Positions 3,021 to 54,916 of a DNA stretch of 64,000 nucleotides are shown one piece after another (the stretch's first letter is position 1; the number at the start of each line of letters is the position of its first letter). The notes beneath the pieces were generated by a model. It ran no database searches. It was not told the origin of the DNA and was given only the letters and a program-made list of their open reading frames with translations. Made by a program: the position numbers and the translations under genes. The stretch is from positions 15,066,001 through 15,130,000 of the forward strand of contig NC_043007.1 of NCBI RefSeq assembly GCF_006345805.1, written 5' to 3'. This DNA is from Octopus sinensis (Eukaryota).

Positions 3021-3843
3021 TATATTAGAAGAAATGAGGTACTCAGAAATTCGGATGGTTTTATATTTACAGATATTTATTTGTATACTACATGTTTTTA
3101 TACATCCTATATCATATATCATATATTAGCGCTTTCGACCATTCTACTCTTTTACTCTTTTACTCTTTTACTTGTTTCAGTCATTTGACTGCGGCCATGC
3201 TGGAGCACCACCTTTAATCGAGCAACTCGACACCGGGACTTATTCTTTTGTAAGCCCAGTACTTATTCTATCGGTCTCTTTTGCCGAACCGCTAAGTAAC
3301 GGGGACATAAACACACCAGCATCGGTTGTCAAGCAATGCTAGGGGGACAAACACAGACACACAAACACACACACGCATATATATACATATATACGACGGG
3401 CTTCTTTCAGTTTCCGTCTACCAAATCCACTCACAAGGCTTTGGTCGGCCCGAGGCTATAGTAGAAGACACTTGCCCAAGGTGCCACGCAGTGGGAATGA
3501 ACCCGGAACCATGTGGTTGGTAAACAAGCTACTTACCACACAGCCACTCCTGCGCCTATGGAGTTGTCAAATTGAACTAAGTTCTTGTGGAAAAAATTGA
3601 CCATTTTTATAGTGTTATTGAGTGTATAGTGGTGGGGCGGGGAAATGAGATAGTACAAGAGGGTGATGAATGGGTACCCTCTTGTACTATCTCATATCCT
3701 TCCCCACCACTACACACTAGAATGGACGAAAGCGCTAATATATGATATATGATATAGGATGTATAAAAACATGTGATATACAAATAAATATCTGTAAATA
3801 TAAAACCATCCGAATTTCTGAGTACCTCATTTCTTCTAATATA
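3021..3843. repeat. ~125-bp inverted repeat pair (3021-3146 / 3718-3843) with internal hairpin; probable Penelope pLTR-like unit
   Basis: Arms near identical in reverse complement; perfect 20-bp stem 3645-3664/3676-3695; GAAA-GCGC-TA hammerhead half-site at 3728-3737; interrupted by SINE B. Confidence 0.75.
3146..3556 (-). mobile_element. SINE type B, full length
   Basis: Head GGCGCAGGAGTGGCTGTGTGGTAAG, CCTTGGGCAAGTG core, internal (TA)/(TG) tract, tail GACTGAAACAAG(TAAAAGAG)n. Confidence 0.92.
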
Positions 3844-4149
3844 AAATACCTGTACATCATCTCCAAACCTTCTAATATATACATATATTATTTGAAATCT
3901 AAGGTACAACTTTTTAATAAGCAAATGATTTAGTATTTCTGCGAAAAGTAAATAGACTATTTACACTGCAGTTATTTTACTCTCTATAGCAGAATAAGAT
4001 AGCAATTTCACTAGTTTCTGGCCTTGTTAGATCTTCATCTCATCTTTCTCTTTTTCACTTAAAGAAAAGTGACAGAAAGAGTAAACGAAAGAAAACAAAA
4101 AGTGAGAGAGATCTACTACCGTGAGGGTACAGTGTGCAGGTGATTCAGT

Positions 4150-4573
4150 TTACTCTTTTACTCTTTTACTTGTTTCAGTAATTTGACTGTGGCCATGCTG
4201 GAGCACCGCCTTTTAGTCGAGCAAATCGACCCCAGGACTTATTCTTTGTAAGCCTAGTACTTATTCTATCAGTATCTTTTGCCAAACCACTAAGCTACGG
4301 GGACGTAAACACACCAGCATCGGTTGTCAAGTGATGTTGTGGGGACAAACACAGACAAATATATACGCCACACACACACACACACACACACACACATACA
4401 CACACATATACGACGGGATTCTTTCAGTTTCCGTCTACCAAATGCACTCACAAGGCTTTGGTCTGCCCGAAGCTATAGTAGAGGACTCTTGCCCAAGGTG
4501 CGACGCAGTGGGACTGAACCCGGAACCATGTGGCTGGTAAGCAAGCTACTTACCACACAGCCACTCCTGCGCC
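4150..4573 (-). mobile_element. SINE type B, full length
   Basis: Same head, core and tail as 3146-3556. Confidence 0.92.
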
Positions 4574-5149
4574 TATACAAATAAAAACAATTTCAGGAAG
4601 AAGGTTGAGTTGAGCAAAGGTAAGCTCACAGAAAGCCGTTTTCTTTCTATCCGGTTTCGATTCTATTTTATAACTATTTGCGCTACTTTCTAATTGTTAT
4701 TAGGGAAAGAATGCACTTCATACACCCGCATTCCCGCTCTCTTAAAATACCACCCATGTCCCTGTTCTGCGGTAAAAAAAATATATATGTTAGTATAACG
4801 TTAGTAAAAAGAGCATATTAAAAAGGTGGAACAACAGAAATAGAGAAACAATTATAAATAGGCATGTTAATAAACCACATATGTTAGTTGAGACTGTTGT
4901 TCATGGTACTGACTAGTAGTAAAGCAATAATTAGGCGTTCTAATTTGTATCACCACATGTCCTTCTTGCAGTCATGTTGTCATTGCACTGTACCAGATCA
5001 AATGTTAAGGTGAGCATCTGGTAAGCATCTGTTCTGAAGATCTAGATATATATCTCTCCCTTTAATTCGGGTGGCAAGGCATGTAGGTTATAGCAATAAT
5101 ATTTGAAATGACGAAACAGTAAGGTTGCCGCAGTGGGCCCACAATAAAC

Positions 5150-6110
5150 GCTACTTGTTGGTTAATTTGACACTTGATCTGGACATTAACAGGTCTGAAG
5201 TACATCGATTCAGTTATCAGAATTAAAATAGAAAGAAAAATCCAAGTCCTTGATCATACGAAAATATCAATTTACATCGTAGAAATGCTAATAATATGCA
5301 TGATTTTCGTCAAGATCAGTAATTCAAGTTACCAATAAGTAGAAGGTATCGTAATACTTTCGCCAGTATTACCAACATTAAAAATAAAATAAATGTGCCC
5401 TTTTAAAGCCTAGCTAGGCTCATGGGCCTGGTTTCCCGGTTTCTATGGCGCATGTGTTCCCCAGCTGGACGGGACGCCAGTCCATCGCAGCGTTACTCAT
5501 TTTTGCCAGCTGAGTGGACTGGAGCAATGTGAAATGAAGTGTTTTGCTCAAGAACACAACGCGTCGCCCGGTCCAGGAATCGAAACCACAATCTTACGAT
5601 CATGATGCTGACATCCTAACCACTAAGCCACGCGCCTCCACATTACCAGCATTGGTTAGCATATATTTGGAGTACTTCGAGGACAAATCTAGAAAGTATA
5701 ACTTTGATTCCTTCAATTATATTAAGCTATCTGGATTAAACCTTTGTATTCAACGGCAAGAGGACCTCCAAGTTCTCTTGCTGTTGAGATCATATCAAAT
5801 CACTTCTAACCTCAGTCTAGTTTATACTGGAAAAGAAACTAGCAACCAGTTGTTATTCATTAATGTAACGGGTTCAAATAACAGGTGTCCGAAAACAATT
5901 TTTTTTAAAACCAATAATTATTGAGCTCTAATTAAAACAACCATGCAAAATTAAGAACGCTCTTCTTAAACACCTTCAACATTGAGCAAAAACGATCTAT
6001 ACCAATGTATCAATTTATACAAAAGAAATGAGTCACTTGGAAATTGTTTTCCTGAATAACAAATATCCAGCCCTTCATATAAGACGTTTAAACAATCTCA
6101 GGCACAAAAA
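5150..6110 (+). pseudogene. Decayed Penelope-like (PLE) reverse transcriptase fragment, interrupted by SINE D
   Basis: Manual translation across the SINE: IVEMLIICM...YQ*VEGIVILSPVLPTLVSIYLEYFED...DHIKSLLTSV*FILEK/ETSNQLLFINV...LKHLQH*AKTIYT...EMSHLEIVFLNNKYPALHIR; resembles PLE RT motifs (Y.Q..G.AMGSP.SP.LANIYME.FE; H.NS....I.FT.E.E....L.FLDV; RA..IC...E...L...F..NGYP); stops and frameshifts. Confidence 0.7.
5380..5641 (-). mobile_element. SINE type D, full length
   Basis: tRNA-like head GGAGGCGCGTGGCTTAGTGG...GTTTCGATTCC; GCGATGGACTGGCGTCCCGTCCAG block; TSD ATTACCA(A/G)CATT at 5368-5379 / 5642-5653. Confidence 0.92.
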
Positions 6111-52577: not shown

Positions 52578-53065
52578 GGCGCAGGAGTGGCTGTGTGGTA
52601 AGTAGCTTTGCTAACAACCACATGGTTCCGGGTTCAGTCCACTGCGTGGCACCTTTGGCAAGTGTCTTCTGCTATAGCCCGGGCCGACCAATGCCTTGTG
52701 AGAGGATTTGGTAGACGGAAACTGAAAGAAAAACCTATCGTATATATGTACATATATATATATATATATATATATATATATATATATATATATATATATA
52801 TATATATATATATATATGTGTGTGTGGGTGTTGTGTGTGTGGGTGTGTGGGTGTGTGTATGTGTTTGTGTGTCTGTGTTTGTCCCCCTAGCATTGCTTGA
52901 GAACCGATGCTGGTGTGTTTATGTCCCCGTAACTTAGTGGTTCGGCAAAAGAGACTGATAGGATAAGTGCTAGGGTTACAAAGAATAAGTCCTGGGGTCG
53001 ATTTGCTCGACTAAAGGCGGTGCTCCAGCATGGCCACAGTCAAATGACTGAAACAAGTAAAGAGA
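52578..53065 (+). mobile_element. SINE type B, full length
   Basis: Head, expanded (TA)n(TG)n middle, tail. Confidence 0.92.
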
Positions 53066-54123
53066 GCAAGGTGTTCCTTTCATCGGGTTCCAGTTCTGTG
53101 GACAAAGGCACGATATGCTCAGTCGGCATAATTTGTCTCTATGACATTCTGAAAAGCTTCTGTGTCCACATCCTTATGTCGCCTCACGCACGTGTGTACG
53201 TCTATGCGGATATCTGGTATTATTATTTCTCTGCCTAAGTGAGATGTGTACATTCCACCACACTACGATGCATCATACGTATGGTATGCATGTATGTATG
53301 TATGTATGTATGTATGATGTATGTATGTATGTATGTATGTATGTATTATGTATGTATGTATGTGTATATGTATGTATATGTATGTGTATGTATGTATGTA
53401 TGTATGTATTATGTTGATGTATGTATGTATGATGTATGTATGTATTATGTATGTATTATGTATGTATTAATGTATGTATGTATGTATGCATGTATGTATG
53501 TATGTATTATGTATGTATGTATAGTATGTATGTATGTATGTATGTGTATGTATGTATGTATGTATGTATGTGTATGTATGTATGTAGTATGTATGTATGT
53601 AATATGTTGTATTATATATATGTATGTATATATATATACACACACATATGCATATATATGTGTGTGTATTTTTAAATATGTTCATTAATTTATAAACATA
53701 TATATTAGTGTATTATGTTGTGTGTATGCAAATATATATCCATGCACACATACACCCCCAACACCCACCCCCCACTCACACACATATGTACACATTTTCG
53801 TACATATGTGTATGTTTGCCATATGATAATTTGTCGTATAAGACCTGGTGACGGAAATTAAAAGAGAGAGAGAGAGTTAGATGGAAAAGGATACAAAGGA
53901 AGATAGGAAAGGTGGGAGAGAGAAAGAGAGGGAGAGAGAAAGAGAGAGAGAGAGAAAGAGAGAGAGAGAAAGAGAGAGAGAGAGAAGAGAGAGAGAGAAA
54001 GAGAGACAGAGAGAGAGGCGGAAGTGGGACAGAGAGCATGGTGAGACGAAAGAAGAAAGTAGTAAAAATGGTTAACTCAGACTATCGTAAAATTGAATAA
54101 CAACAATATTAATCTTTATACAC

Positions 54124-54592
54124 ATAGGAGCGGCTGTGTGGTAAGTAGCTTGCTAACCAACCACATGGTTCCGGGTTCAGTCCCACTGCGTGGCATTTTG
54201 GGCAAGTGTCTTCTGCTATAACCTCGGGCCGACCAATGCCTTGTGAGAGGATTTGGTAGACGGAAACTGAAAGAAGCCTGTCGTATATATATATATATTA
54301 TATATGTGTGTGTGTTGTGTGGTGTGTGTTGTTTGTGTGGTATGTGTGTGTGTGTGTGGTGTGTGTGTGTGTGTACGTGTTGTTGTGTGTCTGTGTTTGT
54401 CCCCCTAGCATTTCTTGACAACCGTCTGGTGTGTTTACGTCCCCGTCACTTTAGCGGTTCGGCAAAATAGACCGATAGAATAAGTACTATGGCTTACAAA
54501 GACTGAGTCCCGGGGTCGATTTGCTCGACTAAAGGCGGTGCTCCAGCATGGCCGCAGTCAAATGACTGAAACAAGTAAAAGAGTAAAAGAGT
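54124..54592 (+). mobile_element. SINE type B, full length
   Basis: Head, core and (TAAAAGAG)n tail. Confidence 0.92.
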
Positions 54593-54874
54593 ATACACCT
54601 ACCTACTTACCTACCTACCTACCTACCTACCTACATACCTACCTACCTACCTACCTGCGTACATGCCTACCTACCTATCTACCTACGACTAACAGCTGTC
54701 AATCTTTCTTCCACTTCCTTCCTAATGACAAGACGTGCTTTTGCCTGTCTCTTTTCAAAGTCTCTTTTTTAAATTTGAGCTCAATTTATTTATTGTAGTC
54801 CCGTAACTGTATTTTAATACTTTTGTGACAACCGGTACTTAACACAACAAAGCTTTTACAAAGCTTTACATTTT

Positions 54875-54916
54875 ACTTTTGACAATCTTTTTCTAAAAAA
54901 GTGAAACCGGTCAAGT
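54875..54916 (+). ncRNA. Minimal hammerhead motif (U3/A8 variant, CCGG loop)
   Basis: ACTT-TTGACAA-tCTTTTT..AAAAAGt-GAAA-CCGG-TC-AAGT, followed by AATAAA; first stem II pair mismatched. Confidence 0.6.

What the first reader, a model, noticed from the sequence alone, without database searches (positions are those of the whole stretch)
3021..54916. Dispersed non-coding hammerhead-ribozyme units in paired classes (Penelope pLTR / retrozyme-like system)
Seen: five complete or near-complete minimal type I hammerhead motifs plus two remnants in 64 kb, none in an ORF and most next to (TA)n. They pair by core variant and palindromic loop 3: CTGANGA+ATAT (20110, remnant 13136), TTGANAA+CCGG (19777, 54875), CCGAAGA+AGCT (27602, 31954), with a GCGC half-site at 3728. 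Established: Penelope-like elements carry minimal type I hammerheads with palindromic loop 3 that are thought to cleave as dimers. Inference: several distinct non-autonomous PLE or retrozyme-like families, whose loop palindrome would restrict dimerisation to their own class. A decayed PLE RT at 5150-6110 supports the link.
Basis: partly seen in the sequence, partly recalled or inferred. Interest (0 to 1): 0.75.

Follow-up and report, generated by a model that had tools for sequence, protein, structure and literature searches.

The report
Hammerhead tails of Penelope retrotransposons
These scattered hammerhead (self-cutting RNA) motifs are the leftover tail ends of six protein-coding Penelope-type jumping-gene families in what is likely an octopus genome; they are predicted to cut only as pairs, and this is a known arrangement apart from some unusual, untested core letters shared by whole families.

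Summary
The motifs are real: 5 type I hammerhead motifs in the window against 0 in the reversed control, plus remnants. Each has 382-1,837 exact 3'-half matches in the genome, controls 0-7. They are not retrozymes. All six families continue upstream into Penelope-like coding sequence: three Hydra-clade, three Neptune-type. One has an intact 960-aa ORF between two hammerheads. The 'paired classes' join distant families (endonucleases 34-36% identical). Core and loop do not pair one-to-one. The better rule is by clade: Neptune-type has U3-A8 with a 6-nt palindrome, Hydra has C3-G8 with an 8-nt palindrome. Predicted dimer specificity needs loop 3 plus stem I, and two distant families are predicted to cross-pair. 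Hammerheads at PLE ends, lone truncated copies and U3-A8 are published. The odd residue is family-wide C4 and mismatched 10.1-11.1 positions, untested. The RT remnant at 5150-6110 has only weak support. This scan noted Hydra-type and U4C hammerheads before on other DNA of this genome.

The parts
3026..3146 (-). Left arm of an inverted Neptune-type PLE end (GCGC family): 3' half of hammerhead (GAAAGCGCTA at 3136-3127) and tail, ending at (TA)n
3147..3558 (+). SINE-like repeat inserted into loop 2 of the left-arm hammerhead (limits approximate)
3559..3674 (-). Upstream part of the left arm with core TTGACAA (U3 at 3570)
3715..3888 (+). Right arm: GCGC half-site at 3728, core lost by internal deletion; 97% identical to the end of a coding copy (L309)
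5644..6129 (+). Possible very old PLE RT/thumb remnant (weak support), with a SINE at about 5380-5643
   Evidence: i-E 1.8; no Pfam hit
13136..13176 (+). Lone decayed hammerhead remnant (CTGACGA ... GAGA CATATG TC); no relative found
19706..20005 (-). 5'-truncated end of a Neptune-type PLE, 78-82% identical to near-full element L126
19776..19813 (-). Hammerhead, U3-A8 core TTGAAAA, palindrome ACCGGT, predicted cut after 19780
20041..20389 (-). 5'-truncated end of a Hydra-type PLE (20041-20283) with a short inverted tail arm (20284-20389)
20110..20190 (-). Hammerhead, canonical core CTGATGA, 54-nt stem II arm, palindrome ACATATGT, predicted cut after 20114
27332..27735 (+). 5'-truncated end of a second Hydra-type PLE family
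27602..27649 (+). Hammerhead with C4 core and A.G at 10.1-11.1 (both family-wide), palindrome ACAGCTGT; stem I damaged in this copy
31631..32330 (+). 5'-truncated end of a third Hydra-type PLE family (85% identical to coding copy L277); 3' limit approximate
31954..32080 (+). Hammerhead with C4 core, 100-nt stem II arm, palindrome ACAGCTGT, predicted cut after 32076
54803..54975 (+). 5'-truncated end of a further Neptune-type PLE family (74% identical to coding copy L307); 3' limit approximate
54875..54916 (+). Hammerhead, U3-A8 core TTGACAA, U.U at 10.1-11.1 (family-wide), palindrome ACCGGT
57586..57689 (-). Additional worn hammerhead candidate (CTGAGGA ... GAAACAATTGTA) in an old repeat with two relatives among my loci; stem II poor

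Best explanation
The motifs are minimal type I hammerheads in the terminal repeat of six protein-coding Penelope-like retrotransposon families (three Hydra-clade, three Neptune-type), left as 5'-truncated, partly inverted insertions next to (TA)n; in the tandem parent transcript two copies likely pair through the palindrome and stem I into a double hammerhead that would cut the RNA, whereas these lone genomic copies are likely inert fossils. Shown here: the motifs, their copy numbers, linkage to RT/GIY-YIG coding sequence, tandem and inverted layouts, and cross-family stem covariation. Inferred: reverse transcription starts 50-300 nt downstream of the ribozyme and usually stops early in the long low-complexity 3' UTR, so only the ribozyme end is copied thousands of times. 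Core and loop variants are inherited from each master element, so they track lineage. Cleavage itself was not tested.
For: Exact 3'-half matches genome-wide: 1,333, 1,837, 1,285, 382, 1,242 and 754, against controls of 0, 0, 2, 0, 0 and 7. Coding linkage, same strand, upstream of the ribozyme: 31958 family, 14 of 17 endonuclease-hit loci carry the AGCT hammerhead downstream, and L265/L266 hold an intact 960-aa ORF between two hammerheads 5.6 kb apart. 20186 family 3 of 30 loci; 19809 family 3 of 30 plus near-full L126. GCGC family 2 of 25 plus L127; 54879 family 1 of 20. 27606 family 7 of 20 loci chosen for a far-upstream segment. Hydra motifs RWR, DKT, CxCx5C, CxxC, CxH are in the 960-aa ORF (defined in PMC8557442). 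L126 has RVT_1, GIY-YIG and a linker Zn finger. (TA)4 lies within 350 nt 3' in 138 of 155 loci against 27% background. Opposite-strand partner in 22 of 155 loci, same-strand in 2 of 155. Cognate stem I and II strands pair far better than permuted ones: 21 vs 7.7 and 27 vs 9.2 pairs; 2 and 1 of 720 permutations reach these. The monomer fold is 1.6-11.1 kcal/mol above MFE; the homodimer fold is favourable in 6 of 7 units.
Against: No cleavage data. The 54879 link rests on one coding locus plus 65-67% UTR similarity to a second. Only the AGCT/U4 subfamily was seen with an intact ORF; I did not search for intact ORFs in the other families. The 54879 homodimer is not favourable (+1.9) and the intact family's is marginal (-1.1, 2-bp stem I) in the nearest-neighbour model. 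In vitro, the Anolis PLE hammerhead needed the element's protein and was dispensable for insertion (PMC11167929), so a processing role is not established. 2 of 30 AGCT-pattern loci (L006, L028) belong to an unrelated repeat, so raw counts slightly overstate. Neptune versus Nematis was not resolved by a tree.
Confidence: 0.88

Rival explanations
1. One reading: the units are non-autonomous retrozyme-like elements, and loop 3 is a class-specific dimerisation code.
For: Most copies are short (100-500 nt) and non-coding. Different palindromes do not pair: helix III duplex -7 to -11 kcal/mol cognate against -3 to +1 non-cognate. A few short same-strand pairs exist (421-1,071 nt apart; L133, L135, L136).
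Against: 5' ends are ragged, not fixed. All six families reach coding sequence. Same-strand neighbours in 2 of 155 loci. The same loop is shared by distant families; specificity also needs stem I; the 31958 x 27606 heterodimer scores -10.6 against -12.7 and -10.7 for the homodimers.
Confidence: 0.06
2. The variant cores (C4; A.R, U.U and C.C at 10.1-11.1) are relaxed or dead ribozymes carried passively because cleavage is not needed for PLE spread. Only the fold or the dimer interface is kept. This concerns function and is compatible with the PLE origin.
For: In the 27606 family a Watson-Crick 10.1-11.1 pair occurs in 2 of the first 100 listed of 318 matches, and C4 in 81 of 100 (counted by hand). 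The youngest, intact AGCT subfamily has U4, while C4 copies are older: mean identity 97.5% against 87%. PMC11167929: ribozyme mutants still insert in vitro. PMC3088659: U4C lowers activity considerably in vitro.
Against: G5, A6, GAAA, U16.1 and H17 stay intact in all six families, and 3-8 covaries (C-G or U-A). PMC3088659 reports U4C sufficient in vivo in a viroid and U10.1.U11.1 as the best-tolerated mismatch.
Confidence: 0.35
3. Chance matches in AT-rich, microsatellite-rich DNA.
For: A loose descriptor does pick up SINE/(TA)n artefacts (2 of 7 hits). Three short units do not fold better than shuffles as monomers (z -0.2 to -0.8).
Against: 0 hits in reversed controls of the window and of 600 kb; hundreds to thousands of copies with conserved flanks; position at PLE ends.
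Confidence: 0.01

Closest known systems
Minimal type I hammerheads of metazoan PLEs (Cervera and de la Pena 2014, PMC4209133; read: text parts 1-2 of 4, supplement file 2 parts 1-2 of 3)
   Same: Type I topology, 1-2 bp helix III with palindromic loop, location in the pLTR, mostly single motifs from truncated PLEs, opposite-strand pairs 100-700 bp apart, thousands per genome, U3-A8 core variant already reported.
   Different: None of the representatives listed in their Fig. S3 alignment has C4, and no cephalopod is included. Their consensus has an extra nucleotide after A9 and G10.1-C11.1; three families here have a 10.1-11.1 mismatch, and two have 54-100 nt stem II arms.
Hydra clade of PLEs, including Hydra-1_Obim (Craig et al. 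2021, PMC8557442; read: passages, section 11, supplement rows and alignment excerpts)
   Same: RWK-like, DKT, CxCx5C linker, CxxC and CxH motifs, (TA)n insertion, hammerhead with a long palindromic helix III; an octopus family is already listed.
   Different: Described elements are under 3 kb; the intact unit here is about 5.6 kb with a 960-aa Asn-rich ORF and a UTR of about 2 kb. None of five helix III strings I searched (including those of the AGCT and ATAT families) occurs in their supplement (line breaks could hide a match).
Neptune/Nematis-type EN+ PLEs (features from PMC8557442 passages)
   Same: GxKF, DKG, RT, CX2-5CxxC linker, C-terminal GIY-YIG.
   Different: Here all three such families carry U3-A8 with a 6-nt palindrome. 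Clade not confirmed by a tree.
Metazoan non-LTR retrozymes (PMC7229834, passages; bioRxiv 10.64898/2026.07.22.740005, parts 1-2 of 5)
   Same: Type I hammerheads; proposed PLE origin.
   Different: Retrozymes are non-coding head-to-tail repeats; these are ragged 5'-truncated ends of coding elements, rarely tandem.
PLE dimer-cleaving hammerhead variants (Lunse, Weinberg and Breaker 2017; not held, seen only as a title and a citing passage in PMC6765202)
   Same: Short palindromic stem III, cleavage as dimers.
   Different: Could not check whether octopus sequences, C4 or 10.1-11.1 mismatches are among its variants.

Membership tests
Type I hammerhead ribozyme | CUGANGA and GAAA...UH core with stems I, II, III in type I order | tested here: met
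   Met with variants: U3-A8 in three families, C4 in two.
Type I hammerhead ribozyme | Covariation of stems | tested here: met
   Across six families: stem I 21 vs 7.7, stem II 27 vs 9.2 pairs in permutations. Better copies (L227, L115) stood in for two window copies. Within-family covariation not tested.
Type I hammerhead ribozyme | G10.1-C11.1 or other pair closing stem II | tested here: inconclusive
   Paired in three families (G-C, G-C, A-U/G.U); mismatched in three (A.G/A.A, U.U, C.C).
Type I hammerhead ribozyme | Self-cleavage after H17 | not testable with these tools
   Needs an in vitro assay.
Penelope-like element (EN+) | Single ORF with RT and C-terminal GIY-YIG upstream of a hammerhead-bearing pLTR | tested here: met
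   Intact ORF seen only for the AGCT/U4 subfamily.
Penelope-like element (EN+) | Tandem pLTRs and inverted 5'-truncated arms | tested here: met
   L265, L266 tandem; L126, L127, L143, L277 and window 3026-3888 and 20284-20389 inverted.
Hydra clade | RWK, DKT, CxCx5C linker, CxxC and CxH, (TA)n targets | tested here: met
   960-aa ORF: RWR50, DKT151, CNCRNKNKC822, CSLC920, CIH948. The 20186 and 27606 family endonucleases are 41% and 36% identical to it, with CxxC and CxH visible.
Neptune clade | CX2-5CxxC linker with DKG and GxKF | tested here: met
   L126: GLKF, DKG, CGRPNCGTC; L307-L309 match the same profile.
Neptune clade | RT phylogeny separating Neptune from Nematis | not tested
Non-LTR retrozyme | Non-coding unit | tested here: not met
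   All six families extend into coding sequence.
Non-LTR retrozyme | Head-to-tail tandem arrays of short units | tested here: not met
   Same-strand partner within 1.5 kb in 2 of 155 loci; no tandem repeat covers a motif in the window.
Non-LTR retrozyme | Abundant small circular RNA | not testable with these tools
   Needs RNA data or northern blots.

The most novel reading that the evidence does not exclude
The doubly deviant core (C4 plus a purine-purine mismatch at 10.1-11.1), fixed in a family of over 1,200 copies, is an active protein-assisted ribozyme. Two Hydra families with only 36% identical endonucleases share a dimer interface (ACAGCUGU plus UCU/AGA stem I), so one retrotransposon family could cleave the RNA of another in trans, while the tens of thousands of other octopus hammerheads form a natural set of mutually orthogonal dimer interfaces.
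Probability: 0.15. Interest if true: 0.6.

Novelty: new member of a known kind. Interest (0 to 1): 0.3.

Why it matters
The basic finding is expected biology: PLE ends with dimer-type hammerheads, here at roughly 68,000 motifs per genome (95% interval 38,000-112,000, extrapolated from 15 in 600 kb). Its value is as a test set. One genome offers many interfaces and family-fixed core variants (U3-A8, C4, 10.1-11.1 mismatches), plus a young, intact 5.6-kb Hydra element. With these one can ask whether PLE hammerheads must cleave at all, which is still open after PMC11167929, and whether dimer interfaces are family-specific.

Tried and rejected
Rfam at E<=5 showed no hammerhead family among the 150 listed matches. 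RT claim at 5150-6110: tblastn with PLE proteins from linked loci found nothing there; the profile gave i-E 1.8; Pfam none. A DNA search of the SINE-free part gave 6 short 72-81% matches, and the search with the SINE returned only SINE copies. 13143 remnant: no relative. The first attempts to link the 27606 family failed: 0 of 20 pattern loci had same-strand coding sequence within 1.5 kb, and only one junction locus, L291/L313, appeared among the 20 loci and their extensions. The link came only with a far-upstream query. Sequencing runs: no RNA holder listed; expression and in vivo cleavage remain open. Pfam does not recognise the 960-aa Hydra ORF. 13 other window ORFs have no Pfam hit. Literature searches found no paper on cephalopod hammerheads beyond the Hydra-1_Obim row, and none on heterodimer specificity; the O. 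vulgaris repeat paper PMC13282606 (passages) does not mention hammerheads. Lunse et al. 2017 was not held, file 1 of the PMC4209133 supplement was not searchable, and bioRxiv supplements are closed; these may already hold C4 or mismatch variants. Rejected: hits at 1516, 11254 and 50925 as artefacts or too weak.

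
Full report
Observation. The window is AT-rich and full of microsatellites and SINE-like repeats. It lies in a 2.72-Gb genome. The best named relatives of a linked protein are from Octopus species, so an octopus is likely. A descriptor for type I hammerheads with a palindromic helix III found 7 hits against 0.03 on average in 200 shuffles; two hits were SINE/(TA)n artefacts. With AT-only palindromes excluded it found exactly the five reported motifs and none in the reversed window. 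The remnant at 13143 has GAGA for GAAA and no relative. The GCGC half-site at 3728 is the right arm of an inverted insertion; the left arm keeps a U3-A8 core split from its 3' half by a SINE. A worn extra candidate lies at 57685.

Copy number and density. Exact 3'-half patterns gave 1,333 (31958 type), 1,837 (20186), 1,285 (19809), 382 (3728), 1,242 (27606) and 754 (54879) matches, with reversed-pattern controls of 0, 0, 2, 0, 0 and 7. I examined the first 20-30 loci of each, 155 in all, all on contig C1. Sixty evenly placed 10-kb stretches (599,900 bases) held 15 motifs in 11 core/palindrome combinations, reversed control 0. That extrapolates to about 68,000 per genome (38,000-112,000). Five in 64 kb is only mildly above the expected 1.6 (P about 0.02).

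What the units are. Copies share a 3' end next to (TA)n (138 of 155 loci have (TA)4 within 350 nt, background 27%) and have ragged 5' ends. Opposite-strand partners occur in 22 of 155 loci (some pairs counted from both sides) and same-strand partners in 2. Every family runs upstream into PLE coding sequence on the same strand. For the 31958 family, an endonuclease search gave loci of which 14 of 17 fetched carry the AGCT hammerhead 1.6-2.6 kb downstream. L265 and L266 hold an uninterrupted 960-aa ORF between two hammerheads 5.6 kb apart, with all Hydra-clade motifs of Craig et al.. The 20186 family links to a Hydra-type endonuclease in 3 of 30 loci. The 27606 family links in 7 of 20 loci selected for a segment 515-750 nt upstream. 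The 19809 family links to a near-complete element with RVT_1, Zn-finger linker and GIY-YIG (L126). The GCGC family links through L308, L309 and L127, and the 54879 family through L307. Window copies are 74-97% identical to these coding loci where compared. So the units are 5'-truncated ends of coding elements, not retrozymes.

The 'paired classes'. The two CCGAAGA+AGCT sites belong to families with 36% identical endonucleases; the two CCGG sites, 34%. In the 31958 family 8 of 14 loci with a core have CCGAAGA and 5 have CTGAAGA; the U3-A8 core goes with both CCGG and GCGC. The pattern that holds in the linked families follows the clade: Neptune-type with U3-A8 and a 6-nt palindrome (3 of 3), Hydra with C3-G8 and an 8-nt palindrome (3 of 3, plus an ACACGTGT family downstream of a Hydra-type endonuclease in L335 and L337).

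Core variants. In the 27606 family C4 is the master state. Among the first 100 listed of 318 matches, 76 have C3C4, 17 C3U4, 4 U3C4 and 3 other; position 10.1 is A in 97; position 11.1 is G in 76, A in 22 and U in 2 (counted by hand). CCA and CTG forms are equally common (3 and 3 of 15), as expected for CpG decay from CCG. The 54879 family has U.U and the GCGC family C.C at 10.1-11.1 (the counts are partly fixed by my anchors and search patterns). C4 also occurs in a third, ACGT-type family. The youngest AGCT copies (mean 97.5% identical, intact ORF) have U4; C4 copies are older (mean 87%). Precedents: U3-A8 in Schistosoma PLEs (PMC4209133); U4C in a viroid and U10.1.U11.1 in natural hammerheads (PMC3088659, passages and section 8). 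I saw no C4 in the Fig. S3 alignment of PMC4209133.

Mechanism. In a double hammerhead the palindromes of two copies form helix III, and stem I forms between the 5' strand of one copy and the 3' strand of the other (established model; PMC4209133). Cognate stems pair far better than permuted ones across the six families. The monomer hammerhead fold lies 1.6-11.1 kcal/mol above the MFE. The homodimer fold is favourable in 6 of 7 units (-12.7 to -0.7) and unfavourable for 54879 (+1.9) (nearest-neighbour energies ignore core tertiary contacts). Different palindromes exclude each other. A shared palindrome is not enough: 19809 x 54879 forms no stem I. The pair 31958 x 27606 is as stable as the homodimers (-10.6). 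Specificity is thus predicted to need loop 3 plus stem I, and it is not family-exclusive. The most likely role is processing of tandem parent transcripts. This is inferred: the one reconstituted PLE hammerhead cut only with protein and was not needed for insertion (PMC11167929, passages and second part of the main text). Lone truncated copies are likely fossils.

RT remnant. The frame at 5644-6129 resembles a PLE RT end by eye but scores only i-E 1.8 and has no Pfam hit. It is old, low-copy and not tied to any of the motifs.

Verdict. Hammerheads at truncated PLE ends are known, and an octopus Hydra element with a hammerhead is already listed. Earlier notes of this scan describe Hydra-type long-armed and U4C hammerheads elsewhere in this genome; I saw them after my own tests and treat them as leads only. 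The remaining interest lies in the family-fixed variant cores and the predicted cross-family dimer, both untested. New members of a known kind; interest 0.3.

Noticed in passing
L265 (G000:C4:78514500-78524000), L266 (G000:C26:1189000-1198900): Young Hydra-clade PLE with an uninterrupted 960-aa ORF, Asn-rich insert, UTR of about 2 kb and 5.6-kb unit; copies 94-100% identical near the ribozyme; not recognised by Pfam. About twice the length of described Hydra elements.
   Followed up: partly
window 51701-52194 and 63456-63968: A segment of about 500 nt occurs twice in inverted orientation (95% identical), each copy with a 104-112 codon open frame and no Pfam hit for the one scanned; no match among my loci outside its SINE-like tail.
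   Followed up: partly
window 6519-7080, 10899-11387, 23424-23780, 55957-56330: Head-to-tail arrays (2-3 units of 176-244 nt) of a SINE-like repeat.
   Followed up: no
window 35701-36367: 20-bp minisatellite, 34 copies.
   Followed up: no
window 3630-3709: Long near-perfect hairpin at the centre of the inverted GCGC-family insertion.
   Followed up: partly
L153-L212 (600-kb sample): Further hammerhead families with palindromes ACGT, ACACGTGT, ACAATTGT, ACGATCGT and ACTAGT, including a third C4 family (CCGACGA with ACGT) and a few U3-G8 cores.
   Followed up: partly
window 19706-20389: A Neptune-type and a Hydra-type PLE end lie within 40 nt of each other on the same strand; PLE ends of different families also cluster in other loci (L052/L068, L131, L129, L335), consistent with shared TA targets.
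   Followed up: no
window 62690-63124: GC-richer stretch with several overlapping open frames of 91-144 codons and no Pfam hit; possibly an exon or UTR.
   Followed up: partly
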